The translations under genes and the position numbers were made by a program. From Flavobacteriaceae bacterium (GTDB lineage Bacteria > Bacteroidota > Bacteroidia > Flavobacteriales > Flavobacteriaceae), in contig PBQM01000038.1 of NCBI GenBank assembly GCA_002725015.1, forward strand, positions 1 through 58,550: a stretch of DNA of 58,550 nt, given 5' to 3'. Within the stretch, counting starts at the first letter, position 1. Every line of letters starts with the position of its first letter. Below, in pieces: positions 278-15,083 of this stretch. Below the pieces are notes generated by a model. The model was not told the DNA's origin. It made no database searches and worked only from the letters and a program-made list of their open reading frames with translations.

Positions 278-1309
278 ATGGCAAGCTTGAAGCAAATTGG
301 AAGTCTATTAGAAAGGTCATTTGAAAAATGGGATTATCAAAAAGCTATTAAGTTTAGTGGAAATGAATCTGAAACAAGAGATTATTTAATTGAACCTTTT
401 TTTGAACAACTTGGATACAACAAGATGGAACACTACTCACACGAGTTTAGTCTGTCTTTTGGTAAGGGGAAAGTTAAAAAAGTAGATATGGTTATCTCCA
501 TCAATGGTAAAAAACCTATTATGCTTATTGAGTGTAAAAAGGCAGGCGTAAAGCTTAACAAAAATCACTATAATCAACTTGCTGAATACTTTAAACATCA
601 TAAGGAATCTAAAATTGGTGTCTTAACTAATGGTGTTCAATATGAGTTTTATTCAGTTAAATGGAATGATGAAAAAAACTTGAGTAAAACACCTTTTTTA
701 ATTTTTGACTTAGAAGACTTTACACGAGCAGATTTAGAGGACATAGCTCACTTTCACATACAACACTTTGAAGTTAATAATATTCTTTCAATTTCTGATG
801 AAAAATACTTCTTAGAAGACTTTGATAAAGCCTTAGTAAACACACTTTATCCTGCAAGTAATGAATTTAGAAGGCTTGTTTATCAGAATATGGGGGGAGT
901 AAGGATGACTGAAAAAATAAGTGATAGAATTTTTAAACTTATTAATTCTATTTCTTTACAAGACGCAATTGAAAAAGTAAAAGTTTTGGAGGGTAAAAGC
1001 TCAAGCAAAGGAGTGTACACAACCTCCTTAGAGCTCAAAGCCTTTCAAATCATAAAAACAATTTTAGCATTAACATCTAAATTAAAAAATCAACTTAACA
1101 GAGTTTCATATAAAGACTACAAAGGACATTTAAAAATTATTGTTGATAATATGCCATCTAAAGAAATATGCAATTTGGTTTTAAATGAAAAAACTCAGAA
1201 AATACAATTTAATAATGACAGTTATGAGTTAGCTAAGGTTTCAGCTGAAGAAATTGCTAAACATAAAAAAAGAATTGTAGAAGAAGCAATAATTCAATTG
1301 TTAGATTAA
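278..1309 (+). CDS. HsdR N-terminal (PD-(D/E)XK) domain nuclease, COG4748-like stand-alone restriction-endonuclease-like protein
   Basis: Motifs NESETRDYLIEPFFEQLGY, KKVDMVI...PIMLIECKK, QLAEYF, GVLTNGVQYEFYS, PFLIFDL and C-terminal TTSLELKAFQIIKTIL; no helicase motifs. Confidence 0.8.
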   Translation: MASLKQIGSLLERSFEKWDYQKAIKFSGNESETRDYLIEPFFEQLGYNKMEHYSHEFSLSFGKGKVKKVDMVISINGKKPIMLIECKKAGVKLNKNHYNQLAEYFKHHKESKIGVLTNGVQYEFYSVKWNDEKNLSKTPFLIFDLEDFTRADLEDIAHFHIQHFEVNNILSISDEKYFLEDFDKALVNTLYPASNEFRRLVYQNMGGVRMTEKISDRIFKLINSISLQDAIEKVKVLEGKSSSKGVYTTSLELKAFQIIKTILALTSKLKNQLNRVSYKDYKGHLKIIVDNMPSKEICNLVLNEKTQKIQFNNDSYELAKVSAEEIAKHKKRIVEEAIIQLLD

Positions 1310-1310
1310 A

Positions 1311-1332
1311 TGTCTGTCAATTGTCTGTCAAT
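1311..1332 (+). repeat. Tandem 11-bp direct repeat TGTCTGTCAAT x2, putative integrase arm-type sites
   Basis: Exact duplication directly after the nuclease stop codon, ~97 bp from the tRNA 3' end. Confidence 0.7.
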
Positions 1333-1386
1333 TTTTGTAATTTTAAAGTGTTCTTTTGCTAATTGTATCAATCTGGATTATGTCCA

Positions 1387-1416
1387 CAAAAAAAGGCCTA
1401 CATTAATGTAAGCCTT
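1387..1416 (-). terminator. Intrinsic terminator downstream of the tRNA
   Basis: Hairpin AAGGC-C-TACAT-TA-ATGTA-A-GCCTT followed on the minus strand by a T-run. Confidence 0.7.
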
Positions 1417-1428
1417 AGATTTTGCTTG

Positions 1429-1502
1429 TGGTCCCACTTGGGCTCGAACCAAGGACCCTCTGATTATGAGTCAGATGCTCTAACCAACTGAGCTATGGGA
1501 CC
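1429..1502 (-). tRNA. tRNA with CAT anticodon, most likely tRNA-Ile2 (lysidine type); tRNA-Met not excluded
   Basis: Minus strand GGTCCCATAGCTCAGTTGGTTAGAGCATCTGACTCATAATCAGAGGGTCCTTGGTTCGAGCCCAAGTGGGACCA folds as a cloverleaf; anticodon arm TCTGA-CTCATAA-TCAGA resembles ileX-type GACTCATAATC; paired G1-C72 argues against initiator; CCA not encoded. Confidence 0.93.
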
Positions 1503-1550
1503 TAAAGAGGCTGCAATATTACGACCATTTTCGAACATCTCAAAGCCTCC

Positions 1551-1574
1551 TATAAATTTCATAAATGGTCAAGG
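1551..1574 (+). repeat. Direct repeat copy 1 (TATAAATTTCATAAATGGTCAAGG)
   Basis: Identical to 2835-2858; imperfect similarity extends over roughly 1527-1586. Confidence 0.9.
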
Positions 1575-1629
1575 GCAAAGCTATAATTACTTTTCCATAA
1601 TACTTAAGAACTCATTAAATTTACTAAAA

Positions 1630-1651
1630 ACTGACAGACTTTTGACAGATA
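1630..1651 (-). repeat. Second pair of 11-bp-period TCTGTCA repeats, inverted relative to 1311-1332
   Basis: TGACAGA at 1632-1638 and 1643-1649; minus strand reads TATCTGTCAAA/AGTCTGTCAGT. Confidence 0.65.
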
Positions 1652-1770
1652 CTGGCTTTTAGTGTTTTCCCAAAAGGCTTTTTACCAAAGCTACTGTGCT
1701 TCAAAAAGTTTATTACTTTTAATGACATATTTAACAAACTAATTTTAAATTGAACATTACAAAAAAAATC

Positions 1771-2769
1771 ATGCTCACATCGCCAATATTAAAAATTATT
1801 AGAGTTGTATTATTTTCCATCACTTTTATTTGCTTCGGGCAAACAAATAATGATGTTACAATTATTAAAAATTCTGGATTAAATCTAATAGATAAAAGCG
1901 CTAAAATTGAAGCCTTAGGAGGTTCATTTATTGTAAGTGAGGGGCCTTTGTGGGATTCCGAAAATAATGAGTTGATATTTAGCGATGTAAGACAAAATAA
2001 AATTTTTACTTGGTCAGAGTCTAATGGTATTAAAGAATATATATTACCTAGCGGATCTACTGGCTATGCTCCTTCATTTAAAAAGGGAGGTATTGGTTCT
2101 AATGGGCTAGCATTTGACAAAGATGGTGATATAATTTTATGTCAACATGGAGACAGACGAATTGCAAGTATTTCAAATACTGCTACCATTAATCCAAATT
2201 TCAAAACCATCATTGATAACTATAATGGTAAAAGATTTAACAGCCCAAATGACCTGTCAATTAGCTCAGATGGTGACATATATTTCACAGATCCCCCATA
2301 TGGGTTTTATTATAATCAAAAAACTTTTGATGATAAATTTAGAGAGTTAGATTTTAATGGTGTTTTTAAACAATCGAAAGATGGGTCATTGCATTTGATT
2401 ACCAAAGAAATGTCTTTGCCCAATGGAATAGCATTGTCTAATGATGAAAAATATGTTTATGTAAATAACTGCGGAACTGAAGACCCGAAAATCATGAAAT
2501 TTAATACCTCAACTTTTGAGGGTAAACTTTTTTTTGATGGTTCGGAGTTAAGTAAAAAACACAAAGGATGTTTTGATGGCTTAAAAGTACACAGCTCTGG
2601 AAATATATTTACAACAGCTCCAAACGGAATTCTAATAATATCTCCAGAAGGAGTTCTAATTGCAACAATAAATTATGGCAAACCAATTACCAATTGCAAC
2701 TTTGATACAAATGAACAATACTTATATGTAACGGGTTTTGATAATATATCGCGAATAAAACTAAAGTAA
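1771..2769 (+). CDS. SMP-30/gluconolactonase/LRE family protein, secreted
   Basis: SEGPLW, GSNGL, RFNSPNDL, YFTDPPYG, PNGIALS, DGLKV motifs; signal peptide; ATG at 1771 preferred over TTG at 1750. Confidence 0.9.
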   Translation: MLTSPILKIIRVVLFSITFICFGQTNNDVTIIKNSGLNLIDKSAKIEALGGSFIVSEGPLWDSENNELIFSDVRQNKIFTWSESNGIKEYILPSGSTGYAPSFKKGGIGSNGLAFDKDGDIILCQHGDRRIASISNTATINPNFKTIIDNYNGKRFNSPNDLSISSDGDIYFTDPPYGFYYNQKTFDDKFRELDFNGVFKQSKDGSLHLITKEMSLPNGIALSNDEKYVYVNNCGTEDPKIMKFNTSTFEGKLFFDGSELSKKHKGCFDGLKVHSSGNIFTTAPNGILIISPEGVLIATINYGKPITNCNFDTNEQYLYVTGFDNISRIKLK

Positions 2770-2834
2770 AATCCCGATCCATAGGGACCTCTTCTTATTT
2801 ATGCCCTGCTGTTTTTAAACAACTCAAAGCATTG

Positions 2835-2858
2835 TATAAATTTCATAAATGGTCAAGG
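2835..2858 (+). repeat. Direct repeat copy 2 (TATAAATTTCATAAATGGTCAAGG)
   Basis: Identical to 1551-1574; imperfect similarity extends over roughly 2813-2872. Confidence 0.9.
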
Positions 2859-2892
2859 TGCAAATCCATAATAAATATAGTATTTTTACCCC

Positions 2893-3285
2893 ATGGAAAG
2901 TCAACGACAAAAAAAAATCGCCTCGGTTTTACAATCGGATTTGGTAGAAGTTTTACAAGGAGCTGCCAGAGAGGGTGGACTTAGGGGGGTCATTATATCG
3001 GTTACCAAAGTCGCTGTGACCGTTGATTTATCGATTGCCAAAGTTTATCTCAGTATTTTTCCAGTTAAACAGGCTCAGTTACTGATTGAAGGCATTATTT
3101 CCAACGCCCCTATGATCAAACACGAGTTGGCCCAGCGCACCAAACACCAACTCAGGCGCATGCCAGAATTGTTGTTTTTTTTGGACGACTCTTTGGAATA
3201 TATCGATCAAATTGACCAGGCTTTAAGACAACCTGAGAGTCCCATCGAAAATCCAGATTTGCTTGACAAAAGAAAAAAAATCTAA
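2893..3285 (+). CDS. rbfA: 30S ribosome-binding factor A
   Basis: RQKKIAS...VTVDLSIAKVYLS...LRRMPELLFFLDDSLEY. Confidence 0.95.
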   Translation: MESQRQKKIASVLQSDLVEVLQGAAREGGLRGVIISVTKVAVTVDLSIAKVYLSIFPVKQAQLLIEGIISNAPMIKHELAQRTKHQLRRMPELLFFLDDSLEYIDQIDQALRQPESPIENPDLLDKRKKI

Positions 3286-9969: not shown

Positions 9970-11112
9970 ATGAAATTCAACACAAAAACCATTCATGGAG
10001 GCCAATCCCCAGATAAAGCTTATGGGTCTGTGATGCCTCCTATTTATCAAACCTCAACTTATGCTCAAACCACCCCTGGTGGCCATAAAGGTTATGAGTA
10101 TTCGCGTACACACAATCCTACCAGAGATGCTCTTGAAAAATCTTTTGCAAGCATTGAGAACGGGCATTACGGGTTGGCTTTTGGCTCTGGATTGGCCGCA
10201 ATTGATGCGGTAATTAAGTTGTTAAAGCCTGGTGACGAGGTCATTTCCACCAACGATTTATATGGAGGAACTTATCGCCTTTTTACCAAAATATTTGAGA
10301 AATTCCAAATCAAGTTTCATTTTACAGGGATGCAAGACACCCAGCAAATAGAGCGCTGTATAAATCTAAAAACTAAATTAATTTGGGTGGAAACCCCAAC
10401 CAACCCCATGCTGAACATCATTGATATAAAAGCCGTTTCTGCCCTTGCAAAAAAACACTCTGTATTGCTGGCAGTGGACAATACTTTTGCAACCCCTTAT
10501 CTTCAAAGACCTTTGGACCTAGGCGCTGACATTGTGATGCATTCGGCCACAAAGTATTTAGGAGGACACAGTGATGTTGTCATGGGGGCATTGGCGGTCA
10601 ATGATAAAACCCTGGCTGATCAGTTGTATTTTATTCAAAATGCCAGTGGTGCCGTTTGTGGACCCCAAGACAGTTTCCTTGTTTTAAGAGGAATAAAAAC
10701 ACTGCATGTTCGCATGCAACGCCATTGCGAGAACGGCCGTGCTATTGCTAATTTTTTAATGGCGCACCCCATGATTGAAAATGTGTATTGGCCTGGCTTG
10801 CCATCTCACCCCAACCATCAAATTGCAGCCGAACAAATGGAAGATTTTGGCGGGATGTTGTCTTTTACAACCAAGGGTAACAACTACCATAAGGCCCTAA
10901 AAGTAGTTGAGCGCCTAAAGGTTTTTACCTTAGCAGAATCTTTGGGAGGTGTTGAGTCGCTGGCGGGGCATCCAGCCAGTATGACACATGCCAGCATTCC
11001 CAAAGCGGAACGGGAAAAAACAGGGGTTGTGGACTCACTGATTCGTTTGAGTGTTGGTATTGAAGATATCGAAGATTTAAAGGCCGATTTAATGCAAGCG
11101 CTTGAGGGCTGA
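9970..11112 (+). CDS. Cystathionine gamma-synthase/beta- or gamma-lyase (Cys/Met metabolism PLP enzyme)
   Basis: PPIYQTSTY, YSRTHNPTR, ETPTNP, DNTFATP, HSATKYLGGHSD, LAESLGGVESL; start moved to ATG 9970. Confidence 0.92.
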   Translation: MKFNTKTIHGGQSPDKAYGSVMPPIYQTSTYAQTTPGGHKGYEYSRTHNPTRDALEKSFASIENGHYGLAFGSGLAAIDAVIKLLKPGDEVISTNDLYGGTYRLFTKIFEKFQIKFHFTGMQDTQQIERCINLKTKLIWVETPTNPMLNIIDIKAVSALAKKHSVLLAVDNTFATPYLQRPLDLGADIVMHSATKYLGGHSDVVMGALAVNDKTLADQLYFIQNASGAVCGPQDSFLVLRGIKTLHVRMQRHCENGRAIANFLMAHPMIENVYWPGLPSHPNHQIAAEQMEDFGGMLSFTTKGNNYHKALKVVERLKVFTLAESLGGVESLAGHPASMTHASIPKAEREKTGVVDSLIRLSVGIEDIEDLKADLMQALEG

Positions 11113-12719: not shown

Positions 12720-15083
12720 TTGAATCGAGAATTTTCCACTTTTTTATTTGTGTTTTTTACAATGTCATTTTCGTTTGGGCAAAGCGCTGTAAACGGACTT
12801 TGGGAAGGCCATTTCTCATACAATTCTATCCGGGCCATTGAGAGTGGAAACACAACTCTTTATGCGGCCAGCGAGAATGCGATTTTCTCTTTAGATCCCC
12901 TCACTCAAGAAATAACAACCCTCACGACCATTGATGGCCTTTCTGGAGATTATATAACGGCCATCAAATACAGTGAAGAATATGACCTTTTAGTTATTGG
13001 CTATGAAACGGGATTGATGGAGGTTTATAACTTCAGTTCAAAATCCGTTCTTAAAGTTGTTGACATTCTCAATAAAGTCACAATACCCCCTGAAAATAGG
13101 CGAATTAATGATTTTTACCAAAATGAAAATTTGGTTTATATCGCTACAAATTATGGTATTTCAATTTATGATTTAGAGACCTTGGAATTTGGAGACACTT
13201 ATTACATTGGATCCAATGGAGCCCAGCTTCAAGTCCGACAAATAGCCGTTTCAAATAATGATATTTATGCCGCTACTAATTTTGGTTTAAAAAGAGCCTC
13301 TCTTGACAATGAGAATTTAATTGACTTTCAGTTTTGGACTACTGAATTTTCAGGTGACTTTACAGCTCTGAGCGTTATCCAAGAGACACTCTACACCGTG
13401 AAGACAGATAACCGATTGTATCAGTTGAATGGCAGTGTATTAGATCCAGTCTTGAGTTTTTCGGAAACGATTTTAGACCTAAAACCCAATGCGTCTAATT
13501 TTTTAATTGTCACTCCTAGTGCGGTGCGCTATTATCAATCTGATTTAACGCTTATTGACACTTACAGCCCGCCCTTGGAGGGCGATGTAAATTTTACCAC
13601 GGCTCATTTTTTTAATGACAGTATGTATTTTGGGACCGAAGCTTCTGGTTTACTAATGACTTCTGAAAACACCCAAAGTAATTATACGGAAGTACAGCCT
13701 GATGGGCCACTGAGAAACAGCCCCTTTTCACTTCACTACGCCTATGAAAATCTATGGGTTACTTTTGGAGATTACGACCAATTTTTTAATCCCAGCCCTT
13801 TAAGAAGTTATGGCTTTAGCTATTTAGAGAATGATACTTGGACCAATATTAGCTATGATAGCCTACAAGAAGTAATTAATAAACCTGTATTCAACCTTAA
13901 CGCTATTGCCGTTAACCCTGTCAATTCAAATCAAGCTTTTATCAGTTCATTTCAAAACGGAATGTTAGATTTTAAAAAGAACATTAGCATAGAGTTGTTG
14001 GATGAGACCAACAGTGCTTTGCAGTCTTTGGTTTTAGCTGGGAGCCCCAATTACAAAAGCATTAGGCTTTCTGGTCTTAAATTTGACAGCCAAGGAAGTT
14101 TGTGGAGCTTGACATCTTTGGTAGAAGACCCATTAAAAAAATACAGTCCTGACACTGCTCAATGGGAAACCTACTCTTTTAACGCTATAATTGACGATCC
14201 AATTAATGACGAACTTGGTTTTGGCGCTCTGGTCATTGGCCCAGATGGGACCAAGTGGGTTGGGAGTTTTAGCAATGGGGTCATAGGATTTAATGAAAAT
14301 GGAAACCTTATAAGGCAAATAAAGGGCGAGGGAGCAGCCAATTTACCTACAGATGAAATCAGTGCCTTGGCTCTAGACAATAACAATATTTTGTGGATTG
14401 GCACTTTTAAGGGCTTGAGAATTCTTTACAATACTTCTAACTTTTTCACAGAAGACGTCATTTCAACGGCCCCTATTATCATTTTAGAGGAGGGCCTTCC
14501 AAAAGAACTTCTTGAACTTCAATTTATCACTGCCATTTTAGTTGACGGCGGTAACAACAAATGGATTTCAACTTTGGACGCCGGCGTTTTCTATTTGAGC
14601 TCCGATGGTCAAGAAACCATATACCACTTTACAGAGGACAATTCTCCACTGCCTTCAAACGCTGTTCTGACCATGGCTCAGAACCAAAACAACGGCAAAA
14701 TTTATTTTGGAACTACAAGGGGCTTGGTGGCCTTTAATGCAGGCGGCTCAAGTCCATCAACGTCGTTAGGCGAAGCCCATGTTTATCCCAATCCTGTAAG
14801 ACCAGGATTTAATTTAGAAACCGATAAAATTAAGATCAAGAATTTAAGTGAAAATGTCAATTTAAAAATTACAGATGTAGAAGGCAATTTGGTGGCTGAG
14901 GCACAGTCCAATACCAATTTGCGTTTTAAAGGTTACAATTTAGAAATTGACGGAGGAACCGCTTTTTGGAACGGTAAAAATTTAAGAAACAGAACTGTGG
15001 CTTCGGGGGTATATGTGGTGCTTGTTACCGACTTAGATAATCTAGCCACAAAAGTTTTGAAAATCATGCTCATTCGCCAATGA
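12720..15083 (+). CDS. porZ: Type IX secretion system A-LPS delivery protein PorZ
   Basis: WEGHFSY N-terminus, beta-propeller repeats (NSPLPSN), C-terminal T9SS CTD (VYPNPV...WNGKN...VASGVY...KIMLIR), adjacent to recO. TTG 12720 is favoured because it follows a TATATTTG box at 12695-12702 and yields a signal peptide (ORF track start 12678). Confidence 0.85.
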   Translation: MNREFSTFLFVFFTMSFSFGQSAVNGLWEGHFSYNSIRAIESGNTTLYAASENAIFSLDPLTQEITTLTTIDGLSGDYITAIKYSEEYDLLVIGYETGLMEVYNFSSKSVLKVVDILNKVTIPPENRRINDFYQNENLVYIATNYGISIYDLETLEFGDTYYIGSNGAQLQVRQIAVSNNDIYAATNFGLKRASLDNENLIDFQFWTTEFSGDFTALSVIQETLYTVKTDNRLYQLNGSVLDPVLSFSETILDLKPNASNFLIVTPSAVRYYQSDLTLIDTYSPPLEGDVNFTTAHFFNDSMYFGTEASGLLMTSENTQSNYTEVQPDGPLRNSPFSLHYAYENLWVTFGDYDQFFNPSPLRSYGFSYLENDTWTNISYDSLQEVINKPVFNLNAIAVNPVNSNQAFISSFQNGMLDFKKNISIELLDETNSALQSLVLAGSPNYKSIRLSGLKFDSQGSLWSLTSLVEDPLKKYSPDTAQWETYSFNAIIDDPINDELGFGALVIGPDGTKWVGSFSNGVIGFNENGNLIRQIKGEGAANLPTDEISALALDNNNILWIGTFKGLRILYNTSNFFTEDVISTAPIIILEEGLPKELLELQFITAILVDGGNNKWISTLDAGVFYLSSDGQETIYHFTEDNSPLPSNAVLTMAQNQNNGKIYFGTTRGLVAFNAGGSSPSTSLGEAHVYPNPVRPGFNLETDKIKIKNLSENVNLKITDVEGNLVAEAQSNTNLRFKGYNLEIDGGTAFWNGKNLRNRTVASGVYVVLVTDLDNLATKVLKIMLIRQ

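What the first reader, a model, noticed from the sequence alone, without database searches (positions are those of the whole stretch)
1311..1651. Two inverted pairs of 11-bp-period TCTGTCA repeats bracket the whole tRNA, giving an attP-like geometry in the chromosome
Seen: TGTCTGTCAAT x2 at 1311-1332 and, on the opposite strand, TATCTGTCAAA/AGTCTGTCAGT at 1630-1651. Both pairs have the same core and the same 11-bp period. Known: lambda-type integrases bind tandem ~10-11-bp arm sites; an integrated attL or attR has arm sites on one side only, whereas attP has them on both. Inference: either two units using one integrase specificity sit on each side of the tRNA (island on the left, cassette on the right), or the intact tRNA plus its promoter is itself part of the mobile unit. 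Either would link the island and the cassette into one recombination system.
Basis: partly seen in the sequence, partly recalled or inferred. Interest (0 to 1): 0.7.

Follow-up and report, generated by a model that had tools for sequence, protein, structure and literature searches.

The report
Two islands back-to-back on one tRNA
The two repeat pairs are likely integrase landing pads at the inner ends of two related mobile DNA islands that sit back-to-back on either side of one tRNA gene; each kind of island is known, but one enzyme family colonising both sides of a gene, with the gene found flipped in some relatives, is unusual.

Summary
The repeats are real and unique in the genome, but they are not an attP. 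They match the arm-type repeat of a tyrosine-integrase family of small-genome marine Flavobacteriaceae that crosses over in tRNA anticodon loops. In relatives the integrase-side (P) pair points towards the loop at 61 bp (27 of 29 sites). The cargo-side (P') pair points away at 110-194 bp. Both window pairs are P'-type (133 and 161 bp). The left pair is an ordinary 3'-side island end. The right pair heads a decayed upstream unit: duplicated promoter, P' arm, gluconolactonase gene and integrase tail. The same integrase makes complete upstream (5'-type) islands at tRNA-Ala, including a circular contig showing the true attP with direct pairs. Arms on both sides recur (4 of 18 genomes at this tRNA, 2 of 17 at tRNA-Ala), and the tRNA is flipped in two relatives. 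No P arm, 5' fragment or family integrase was found in this genome, so how the right unit arrived is inferred. This scan met the family before on other DNA (e1-3866773, e1-5268736). New variant of a known kind.

The parts
278..1309 (+). Cargo gene of the left island, 343 aa, with an HSDR_N (type I restriction R N-terminal) domain; its stop codon abuts the left pair
   Evidence: Pfam PF13588 E=1.3e-15; no PADLOC hit; contigs of runs X2, X3 and X5 match up to 1309 and continue with other sequence
1311..1332 (-). Left arm-type pair (P' type), pointing away from the tRNA, 133 bp from the anticodon loop: inner end of a 3'-side island
   Evidence: 18 of 18 match to the P-arm motif of the main integrase subfamily
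1313..1355 (-). Left arm of the 44-bp inverted repeat (divergent P' arm)
   Evidence: 84% to 1606-1649; 90% homologue beside the same tRNA in metagenome locus L136
1393..1416 (-). Terminator-like hairpin after the tRNA
   Evidence: 1 found, 0.2 in shuffles
1428..1502 (-). tRNA with anticodon CAT, probably Ile2 (inferred by elimination: two other CAT types appear among relatives); anticodon loop 1464-1470 is the inferred crossover core
1514..1544 (-). Putative tRNA promoter: TTTG, 19 nt, TAATATTG (Bacteroidota -33/-7 consensus, recalled); the TTTG part resembles an older decayed P' arm
   Evidence: sequence; comparison with G003 and the glyoxalase-type loci
1528..1587 (+). First copy of the 61-bp direct repeat (tRNA/rbfA promoter region)
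   Evidence: 85% to 2812-2872; single copy at empty sites G016 and G021
1590..1700 (+). P' arm of the right (upstream) unit; conserved family sequence normally found downstream of tRNA 3' ends
   Evidence: matches in 18 of 21 other genus genomes; contexts
1630..1651 (+). Right arm-type pair (P' type), pointing away from the tRNA, 161 bp from the anticodon loop
   Evidence: 16 of 18 match to the P-arm motif
1750..2769 (+). Cargo of the right unit: SMP-30/gluconolactonase-family gene
   Evidence: Pfam PF08450 E=1.3e-32; absent at empty sites
2779..2826 (-). Decayed 3' tail of the family integrase gene (about 16 codons, one stop), convergent with the cargo
   Evidence: 33-36 of 55 nt, same register in 4 of 4 integrases; 0 of 200 shuffles reach the score; same tail in G015
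2812..2872 (+). Second copy of the direct repeat, beside rbfA (inferred displaced host promoter region)
2893..3285 (+). rbfA, the core-genome neighbour
   Evidence: Pfam PF02033; divergent from the tRNA in 16 of 17 genomes

Best explanation
The two inverted repeat pairs are likely integrase arm-binding sites at the cargo-side (P') ends of two related islands that lie in opposite orientations on either side of one tRNA gene, and they do not form an attP. How it works: a lambda-type tyrosine integrase is inferred to cut at the 7-bp anticodon loop, and because the anticodon stem is symmetric its attP can be built either way round. The usual form carries the tRNA 3' half plus terminator and sits downstream; this is the left unit with the HsdR-N cargo. 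The reversed form carries the promoter plus 5' half and sits upstream; this is shown for tRNA-Ala in relatives and inferred for the right unit here. The right unit has since lost its P arm, most of any integrase and the displaced tRNA piece, probably by a deletion between look-alike sequences in the integrase tail and the displaced promoter (inferred). It should therefore be stuck. With related units facing outward on both sides, the tRNA block is flanked by inverted homology and can be flipped, most likely by homologous recombination between conserved arms or integrase tails (flips are seen in relatives; the mechanism is inferred).
For: (1) 1590-1720 recurs in 18 of 21 other genus genomes, mostly downstream of tRNA-His, -Asn, -Ala or -CAT. 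(2) Complete elements have a PF00589 integrase whose start overlaps a second pair. Its model's best hits are full-length lambda integrase (E=8.5e-9, 367 columns), with a predicted N-terminal three-strand-plus-helix domain. (3) P pair to loop is 61 bp at 27 of 29 distinct sites (60-62 at all 29), across five tRNAs and both orientations. P' pairs lie at 110-194 bp (31 sites, including the window's two). (4) In 8 of 12 elements with both ends, the P' pair matches that element's own P motif at 17-18 of 18; 0 of 20000 shuffled pairings reach the total. (5) Integrases 95-98% identical to the 3'-type ones sit beside a reversed tRNA-Ala 5' half (L077, L085). L092 is a complete upstream island and L099 a 5167-bp contig with a 123-bp terminal overlap holding integrase and a direct-oriented attP. 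(6) The right unit has family architecture: duplicated promoter, P' arm, cargo, convergent integrase tail; G016 and G021 are empty. (7) Pairs on both sides: 4 of 18 genomes at tRNA-CAT, 2 of 17 at tRNA-Ala. The tRNA is flipped in G015 (1 of 17 relative to rbfA) and in G019 (relative to the OsmC cluster). L101 shows the matching inverted layout at tRNA-Ala.
Against: No binding or recombination was tested. No family integrase was found with this query in the window's own genome (74% complete), only tails. The left island's far end is off the contig. No reversed-type P arm or lone 5' half exists for tRNA-CAT in 22 genus genomes or in a genome contigs pattern scan (0 hits). All 4 reversed P sites are tRNA-Ala, whose loop CTGGCAG is nearly palindromic, while the CAT loop is not. 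The four upstream arms at tRNA-CAT share one promoter type and may be one event. The integrase tail is also a common cassette boundary in this family, so it does not prove that a whole integrase lay here. 4 of 12 elements had no matching P' pair, and 6 of the 12 share one motif, so that test overstates. The isolated N-terminal domain gave only a weak fold match (Z 5.1). L099's circularity could come from tandem copies.
Confidence: 0.78

Rival explanations
1. The pairs are family arm sites, but the right unit never integrated through the anticodon loop of this tRNA. A P'-arm-plus-cassette piece was pasted into the promoter region by homologous or microhomology recombination at an AT-rich motif shared by P' arms, integrase tails and this promoter, or by the cassette-capture reaction proposed in e1-5268736.
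For: Upstream arms at both tRNAs join foreign DNA at about the same point of the arm. No reversed attR for tRNA-CAT was found. Isolated tails are frequent: 163 partial hits in 93 of 123 sequences, 43 of them starting 70-79 nt before the stop.
Against: The unit is flanked by a 61-bp duplication of the promoter region, so the incoming DNA already carried a promoter-P' junction, which is what a reversed-type attP carries (L099). The end product is the same either way.
Confidence: 0.3
2. The site is a chromosomal attP, or a mobile unit that contains the whole tRNA and its promoter.
For: Arms lie on both sides of a known core. A second full copy of the tRNA ends contig C50 of the same genome and overlaps window 1454-1508 by 55 bp; this could be a whole-gene duplication at the far end of the left island.
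Against: True attP and tandem junctions of this family have direct pairs with a P pair at 61 bp (L099; tandem junctions L096, L126, L143). Here both pairs point outward and neither overlaps an integrase start. Displaced pieces beside 29 P arms are tRNA halves. The complete genome G010 has one exact copy. C50 is as easily an allele without the left island.
Confidence: 0.07
3. The inverted arms form a dedicated, integrase-driven inversion switch that flips the tRNA.
For: The tRNA is flipped in G015 and G019 and L101 shows an inverted layout. IntDOT integrates in both orientations when the overlap is symmetric (PMC2817482, passages).
Against: There is one core between the arms, not two inverted cores. 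The CAT loop is not palindromic. No strand-changing joint was listed in 8 runs laid (six were contig sets, two raw-read runs had almost no cover here). The tRNA takes its promoter and terminator with it, so a flip need not change expression.
Confidence: 0.08
4. The pairs are operators of a host transcription factor.
For: Tandem repeats near promoters are typical operators (general knowledge), and the right pair lies upstream of a cargo gene.
Against: Only 2 pairs in the genome. Absent at empty sites. Fixed 61-bp spacing to the crossover loop. The motif differs between integrase subfamilies. The left pair follows a stop codon.
Confidence: 0.03

Closest known systems
tRNA-targeting genomic islands with tyrosine integrases and anticodon-centred ('A') crossover, as catalogued by Islander (PMC4383910; parts 1-2 of 3 read)
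   Same: Restored tRNA at one end, displaced fragment and integrase at the other, anticodon-loop crossover (2083 of 3919 islands), tandem arrays.
   Different: Here near-identical integrases target several tRNAs and both orientations, and both sides of one gene are occupied. The window's right unit lacks integrase and fragment and would not pass Islander's filters.
Islands with a 5' tDNA fragment (reversed target orientation): 159 of 3919 in Islander; Zhao and Williams 2002 (title and one citing sentence seen in PMC6563490; paper not held); pTN3-like integrases (PMC8371274 passages)
   Same: The element supplies promoter and 5' half and lies upstream of the gene, as shown here for tRNA-Ala relatives.
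   Different: In the passages seen this is a rare property of particular elements. Here it coexists with the 3' form in one integrase subfamily (95-98% identity) and on one gene.
Tycheposons and cryptic integrase-only elements of Prochlorococcus (bioRxiv 10.1101/2020.12.28.424599; passages)
   Same: Small marine cargo elements with an inward-facing integrase that seed islands at tRNAs and leave decayed pieces.
   Different: There each integrase clade is tRNA-specific and islands grow on one side. This family is multi-target and two-sided. Relationship of the integrases was not tested.
IntDOT of Bacteroides CTnDOT (PMC2817482; passages)
   Same: Bacteroidota tyrosine integrase with arm-type sites whose orientation of integration is set by the overlap; a symmetric overlap gives both orientations.
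   Different: CTnDOT is a large conjugative element with mismatched overlaps. Mismatch tolerance was not shown for this family.

Membership tests
tRNA-targeting tyrosine-integrase island (Islander type) | Tyrosine integrase encoded in the element | tested here: inconclusive
   Met in relatives (PF00589; invariant R217, K245, R308, Y340 and near-invariant H331, with Y305 in place of the first His). In the window only a decayed tail; none found with this query in the 74%-complete genome.
tRNA-targeting tyrosine-integrase island (Islander type) | Restored tRNA plus displaced fragment at the far end | tested here: inconclusive
   Met in relatives L037, L039, L089, L092, L100. Left unit: far end off the contig. 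Right unit: duplicated promoter present, no tRNA fragment.
tRNA-targeting tyrosine-integrase island (Islander type) | Crossover in the anticodon loop | tested here: met
   P pair 61 bp from the loop at 27 of 29 sites in both orientations; in L092 and L101 homology starts at the anticodon stem. Inferred from sequence, not from cleavage mapping.
lambda-type integrase with arm-type sites | N-terminal arm-binding domain and tandem ~11-bp arm repeats at both ends | tested here: inconclusive
   Repeats at both ends match in 8 of 12 elements; top fold hits are full-length lambda Int; the isolated domain gives only a weak AP2-like match, Z 5.1, rmsd 3.2, 55 aligned. Binding untested.
attP of this family | P and P' pairs in direct orientation, P pair 61 bp from the loop and overlapping the integrase start | tested here: not met
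   Window pairs are inverted, at 133 and 161 bp, both pointing away; true attP seen in L099.
5'-fragment (reversed-orientation) island | Element arm and cargo upstream of the tRNA, with a duplicated promoter region | tested here: met
5'-fragment (reversed-orientation) island | Displaced tRNA 5' half next to a P arm at the far end | tested here: not met
   Not in the window, nor for tRNA-CAT in 22 genus genomes or genome contigs; met for tRNA-Ala in relatives.
Tycheposon | Tycheposon-lineage integrase and replication hallmark genes | not tested
   No comparison with tycheposon profiles was run.
Site-specific inversion switch | Two inverted crossover cores and both orientations within one population | tested here: not met
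   One core only; no strand-changing joint listed in 8 runs (weak test). Flips seen only between species.

The most novel reading that the evidence does not exclude
One integrase family keeps two interconvertible attP designs, born at the nearly palindromic tRNA-Ala(GGC) loop and spread to other tRNAs. It can stack islands on both sides of an essential tRNA gene, making the gene a chimera with element-supplied promoter and terminator inside an invertible block whose flips shuffle arms, cargo and integrases between the two islands: a two-sided island-building system in streamlined marine flavobacteria.
Probability: 0.4. Interest if true: 0.65.

Novelty: new variant of a known kind. Interest (0 to 1): 0.45.

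Why it matters
It shows that a single tRNA gene can seed islands in both directions, and it gives a natural pair of attP designs for one enzyme. That makes it directly testable how reversed-orientation (5'-type) islands, about 4% of those in Islander, arise from ordinary ones. It also warns that arms on both sides of a tRNA need not mean attP. An integrase that accepts several anticodon loops in either orientation could be a tool for marine Bacteroidota.

Tried and rejected
Dif/Xer-like or secondary-att reading of the 61-bp direct repeat: dropped once it proved to be the promoter region, single at empty sites. D-loop crossover (suggested by 3'-type fragments starting there): dropped because reversed fragments start on the other side of the anticodon arm at the same 61-bp spacing. 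Reading 2779-2822 as a decayed tRNA 5' end: dropped; it matches the integrase tail (the first alignment was out of register). Phage or satellite link: no relative in viral contigs. Reversed attR at tRNA-CAT: 0 hits. The loose 15-base scan of genome contigs returned mostly unrelated taxa and was not analysed. One search returned nothing because of a pattern error and was redone. PADLOC: no hit. Fold search of the isolated N-terminal domain (single-sequence model, pLDDT 58): no integrase arm domain listed. PDB sequence search: one XerC-like hit. Read depth: left-island contigs were shallower than cassette and rbfA contigs in X1, X5, X6 and X9, similar in X3 and deeper in X2; the tool says depth is no share of cells, so I draw nothing from it. 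No joint skipping the cassette was listed; contigs drop rare variants. Literature: 8 searches found no description of this family or of two-sided occupancy; subscription papers are not covered. PMC10865867 (passages) and PMC1635311 (passages) added nothing. No supplements were read.

Full report
Observation. The four 11-mers are at the stated places. They are the only TCTGTCA pairs in the 1.44-Mb, 84-contig genome at any spacing from 7 to 24 bp (2 pairs among 184 heptamers). They are the core of a 44-bp inverted repeat (84%) around a tRNA with anticodon CAT at 1428-1502 and its terminator-like hairpin. To the left is an HSDR_N-domain gene. To the right is a gluconolactonase gene between 61-bp direct repeats (1528-1587, 2812-2872), then rbfA.

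What the repeat belongs to. The right-hand segment 1590-1720 matches 41 places in 18 of 21 other genomes of the genus. I fetched 40 regions around these and related matches. Most copies lie just downstream of the 3' end of tRNA-His, -Asn, -Ala(GGC) or this tRNA and head a run of small cargo genes. Where the far end is assembled there is an inward-facing 348-357-aa PF00589 protein. A second pair overlaps its start codon, and a tRNA fragment follows. An alignment of 47 homologues keeps the catalytic residues and has a nearly invariant C-terminus and a variable N-terminus. The model (pLDDT 82.7) best matches full-length lambda integrase. The isolated N-terminal domain gave only a weak match, so arm binding is inferred. 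The family occurs in 9 of 21 other genus genomes, in 11 of 401 family genomes searched, all 1.4-2.7 Mb, and in at least 527 metagenome stretches, of which 79 loci were kept. It was not found in viral contigs or, with this query, in the window's own incomplete genome.

Geometry. I scanned the window and 148 loci for TGACAGA-type pairs near five anticodon loops (other subfamilies' motifs are not caught). Pairs pointing towards a loop lie 61 bp from it at 27 of 29 distinct sites (60 and 62 once each). Pairs pointing away lie 110-194 bp from it (31 sites). The fixed distance places the crossover in the anticodon loop and defines P (integrase side) and P' (cargo side). In 8 of 12 elements with both ends on one contig the P' pair repeats the element's own P motif (17-18 of 18); 4 did not, and relatedness inflates the shuffle test. 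Both window pairs are P'-type: 133 bp downstream and 161 bp upstream. A real attP looks different. Metagenome contig L099 (5167 bp, 123-bp terminal overlap) has P pair, loop, tRNA half and P' pair in direct orientation beside an integrase. The window is therefore not attP-like.

Why there is an arm upstream. Four of the 29 P sites are joined to the reverse complement of the tRNA-Ala 5' half; L077 and L085 show this beside integrases 95-98% identical to the 3'-type enzyme, and one search shows further cases in other subfamilies (L144, L167). L092 is a complete upstream island and L099 is the matching attP. The Ala loop CTGGCAG is one base from a palindrome, which offers a route between the two designs (inferred; IntDOT integrates both ways at symmetric overlaps, PMC2817482). 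Upstream P' pairs are present at tRNA-Ala in 5 of 17 genomes (two of the 17 have under 40 bp of upstream flank) and at tRNA-CAT in 4 of 18. Pairs on both sides occur in 2 and 4 genomes respectively.

The right unit here. It reads: promoter copy, P' arm, cargo, decayed integrase tail on the opposite strand (2779-2826; 33-36 of 55 nt in register with 4 of 4 integrases, 0 of 200 shuffles), second promoter copy, rbfA. G015 has the same tail and repeat; G016 and G021 are empty. This is what a reversed-type element gives after a deletion from the integrase tail to the displaced promoter, which share a similar AT-rich stretch. Against certainty: no reversed P arm or lone 5' half of tRNA-CAT was found in 22 genus genomes or by pattern in genome contigs, and the CAT loop is not palindromic. 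The route of arrival is thus open, but family membership of the arm is not. Contigs covering arm, cargo and tail occur in six runs from six studies, in two pieces in X1 and X9, with no joint skipping the unit listed (X1 may be the source sample).

The left unit. Its far end is off the contig. Its cargo gene matches up to exactly 1309 in contigs of three runs that then continue differently, so the pair sits at the cargo boundary. Contig C50 carries the conserved left-hand neighbours and ends in a second full copy of the tRNA that overlaps window 1454-1508. It is either an allele without the left island or a duplicate at its far end; I could not tell which.

Consequence. Two related units facing outward put inverted homology around the tRNA. 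The gene is divergent from rbfA in 16 of 17 genomes and flipped in G015, with arms on both sides and the integrase tail still beside rbfA. It is flipped relative to the OsmC cluster in G019, and L101 shows the equivalent layout at tRNA-Ala. Homologous recombination is the simplest cause (inferred; inversions between oppositely oriented related elements are described in PMC8371274). These are draft assemblies, so misassembly is not excluded.

Comparison and verdict. Anticodon-centred islands and 5'-fragment islands are known (2083 and 159 of 3919 in Islander; Zhao and Williams 2002, title only), and tycheposons are an ecological parallel. In 8 literature searches I did not find this family, one integrase using both designs, or two-sided occupancy. 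Earlier notes of this scan describe the family's tRNA hopping and its tail-bounded cassettes. Shown: the repeats, their uniqueness, their P' position, the reversed design at tRNA-Ala, the tail, the empty sites and the flips. Inferred: protein binding, crossover point, the history of the right unit and the flipping mechanism. New variant of a known kind; interest 0.45.

Noticed in passing
G000 contig C50:10271-11221 (own genome): Second full tRNA-CAT copy at the contig end (4 differences in the T arm) plus a 55-bp 3' fragment at 10271; overlaps window 1454-1508 by exactly 55 bp. Alternative left flank or duplicate.
   Followed up: partly
window 1528-1570; L070 (G003) upstream of the tRNA: In this clade the glyoxalase-like gene (label recalled from its sequence) between tRNA and rbfA is replaced by a short decayed P'-arm piece that supplies a TTTG 19 nt upstream of the putative -7 box: an older upstream insertion may have been domesticated as the tRNA promoter.
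   Followed up: partly
own genome C73 (714-779, 1324-1403), C11 (170-220), C50 (8517-8600); many loci: Isolated copies of the integrase 3' tail separate cargo genes; 43 partial hits start 70-79 nt before the stop.
   Followed up: partly
L099 (5167 bp): Apparently circular integrase element with a reversed-type attP for tRNA-Ala, three small cargo genes, and 117-aa and 446-aa unknown ORFs.
   Followed up: partly
L101:9600-10060 and 13400-13889: P arm joined to a tRNA-Ala 3' half at one end and P' arm joined to promoter plus full tRNA in the opposite orientation at the other: an inverted att pair.
   Followed up: partly
window 1672-1692 and homologues (for example L063: 5367, 7208, 16459): A short palindromic box downstream of P' pairs is shared by arms of different integrase subfamilies and recurs alone between cargo genes; role unknown.
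   Followed up: no
own genome C47:190-370: tRNA-Asn is followed by what looks like a P' arm of another subfamily (GGCAGT-type repeats), similar to L145.
   Followed up: no
window 1769: Contigs of five runs carry one extra base here, which would change the start of the gluconolactonase ORF.
   Followed up: no
L062:2917-4464, L072:2685-4232, L040:1084-2685: Serine-recombinase elements (Resolvase plus Recombinase domains for L040) occupy the same tRNA 3' ends and push the tyrosine-integrase arms outward.
   Followed up: no
own genome C53:7823-7993: 53-aa C-terminal fragment of an unrelated tyrosine recombinase between two core genes.
   Followed up: no
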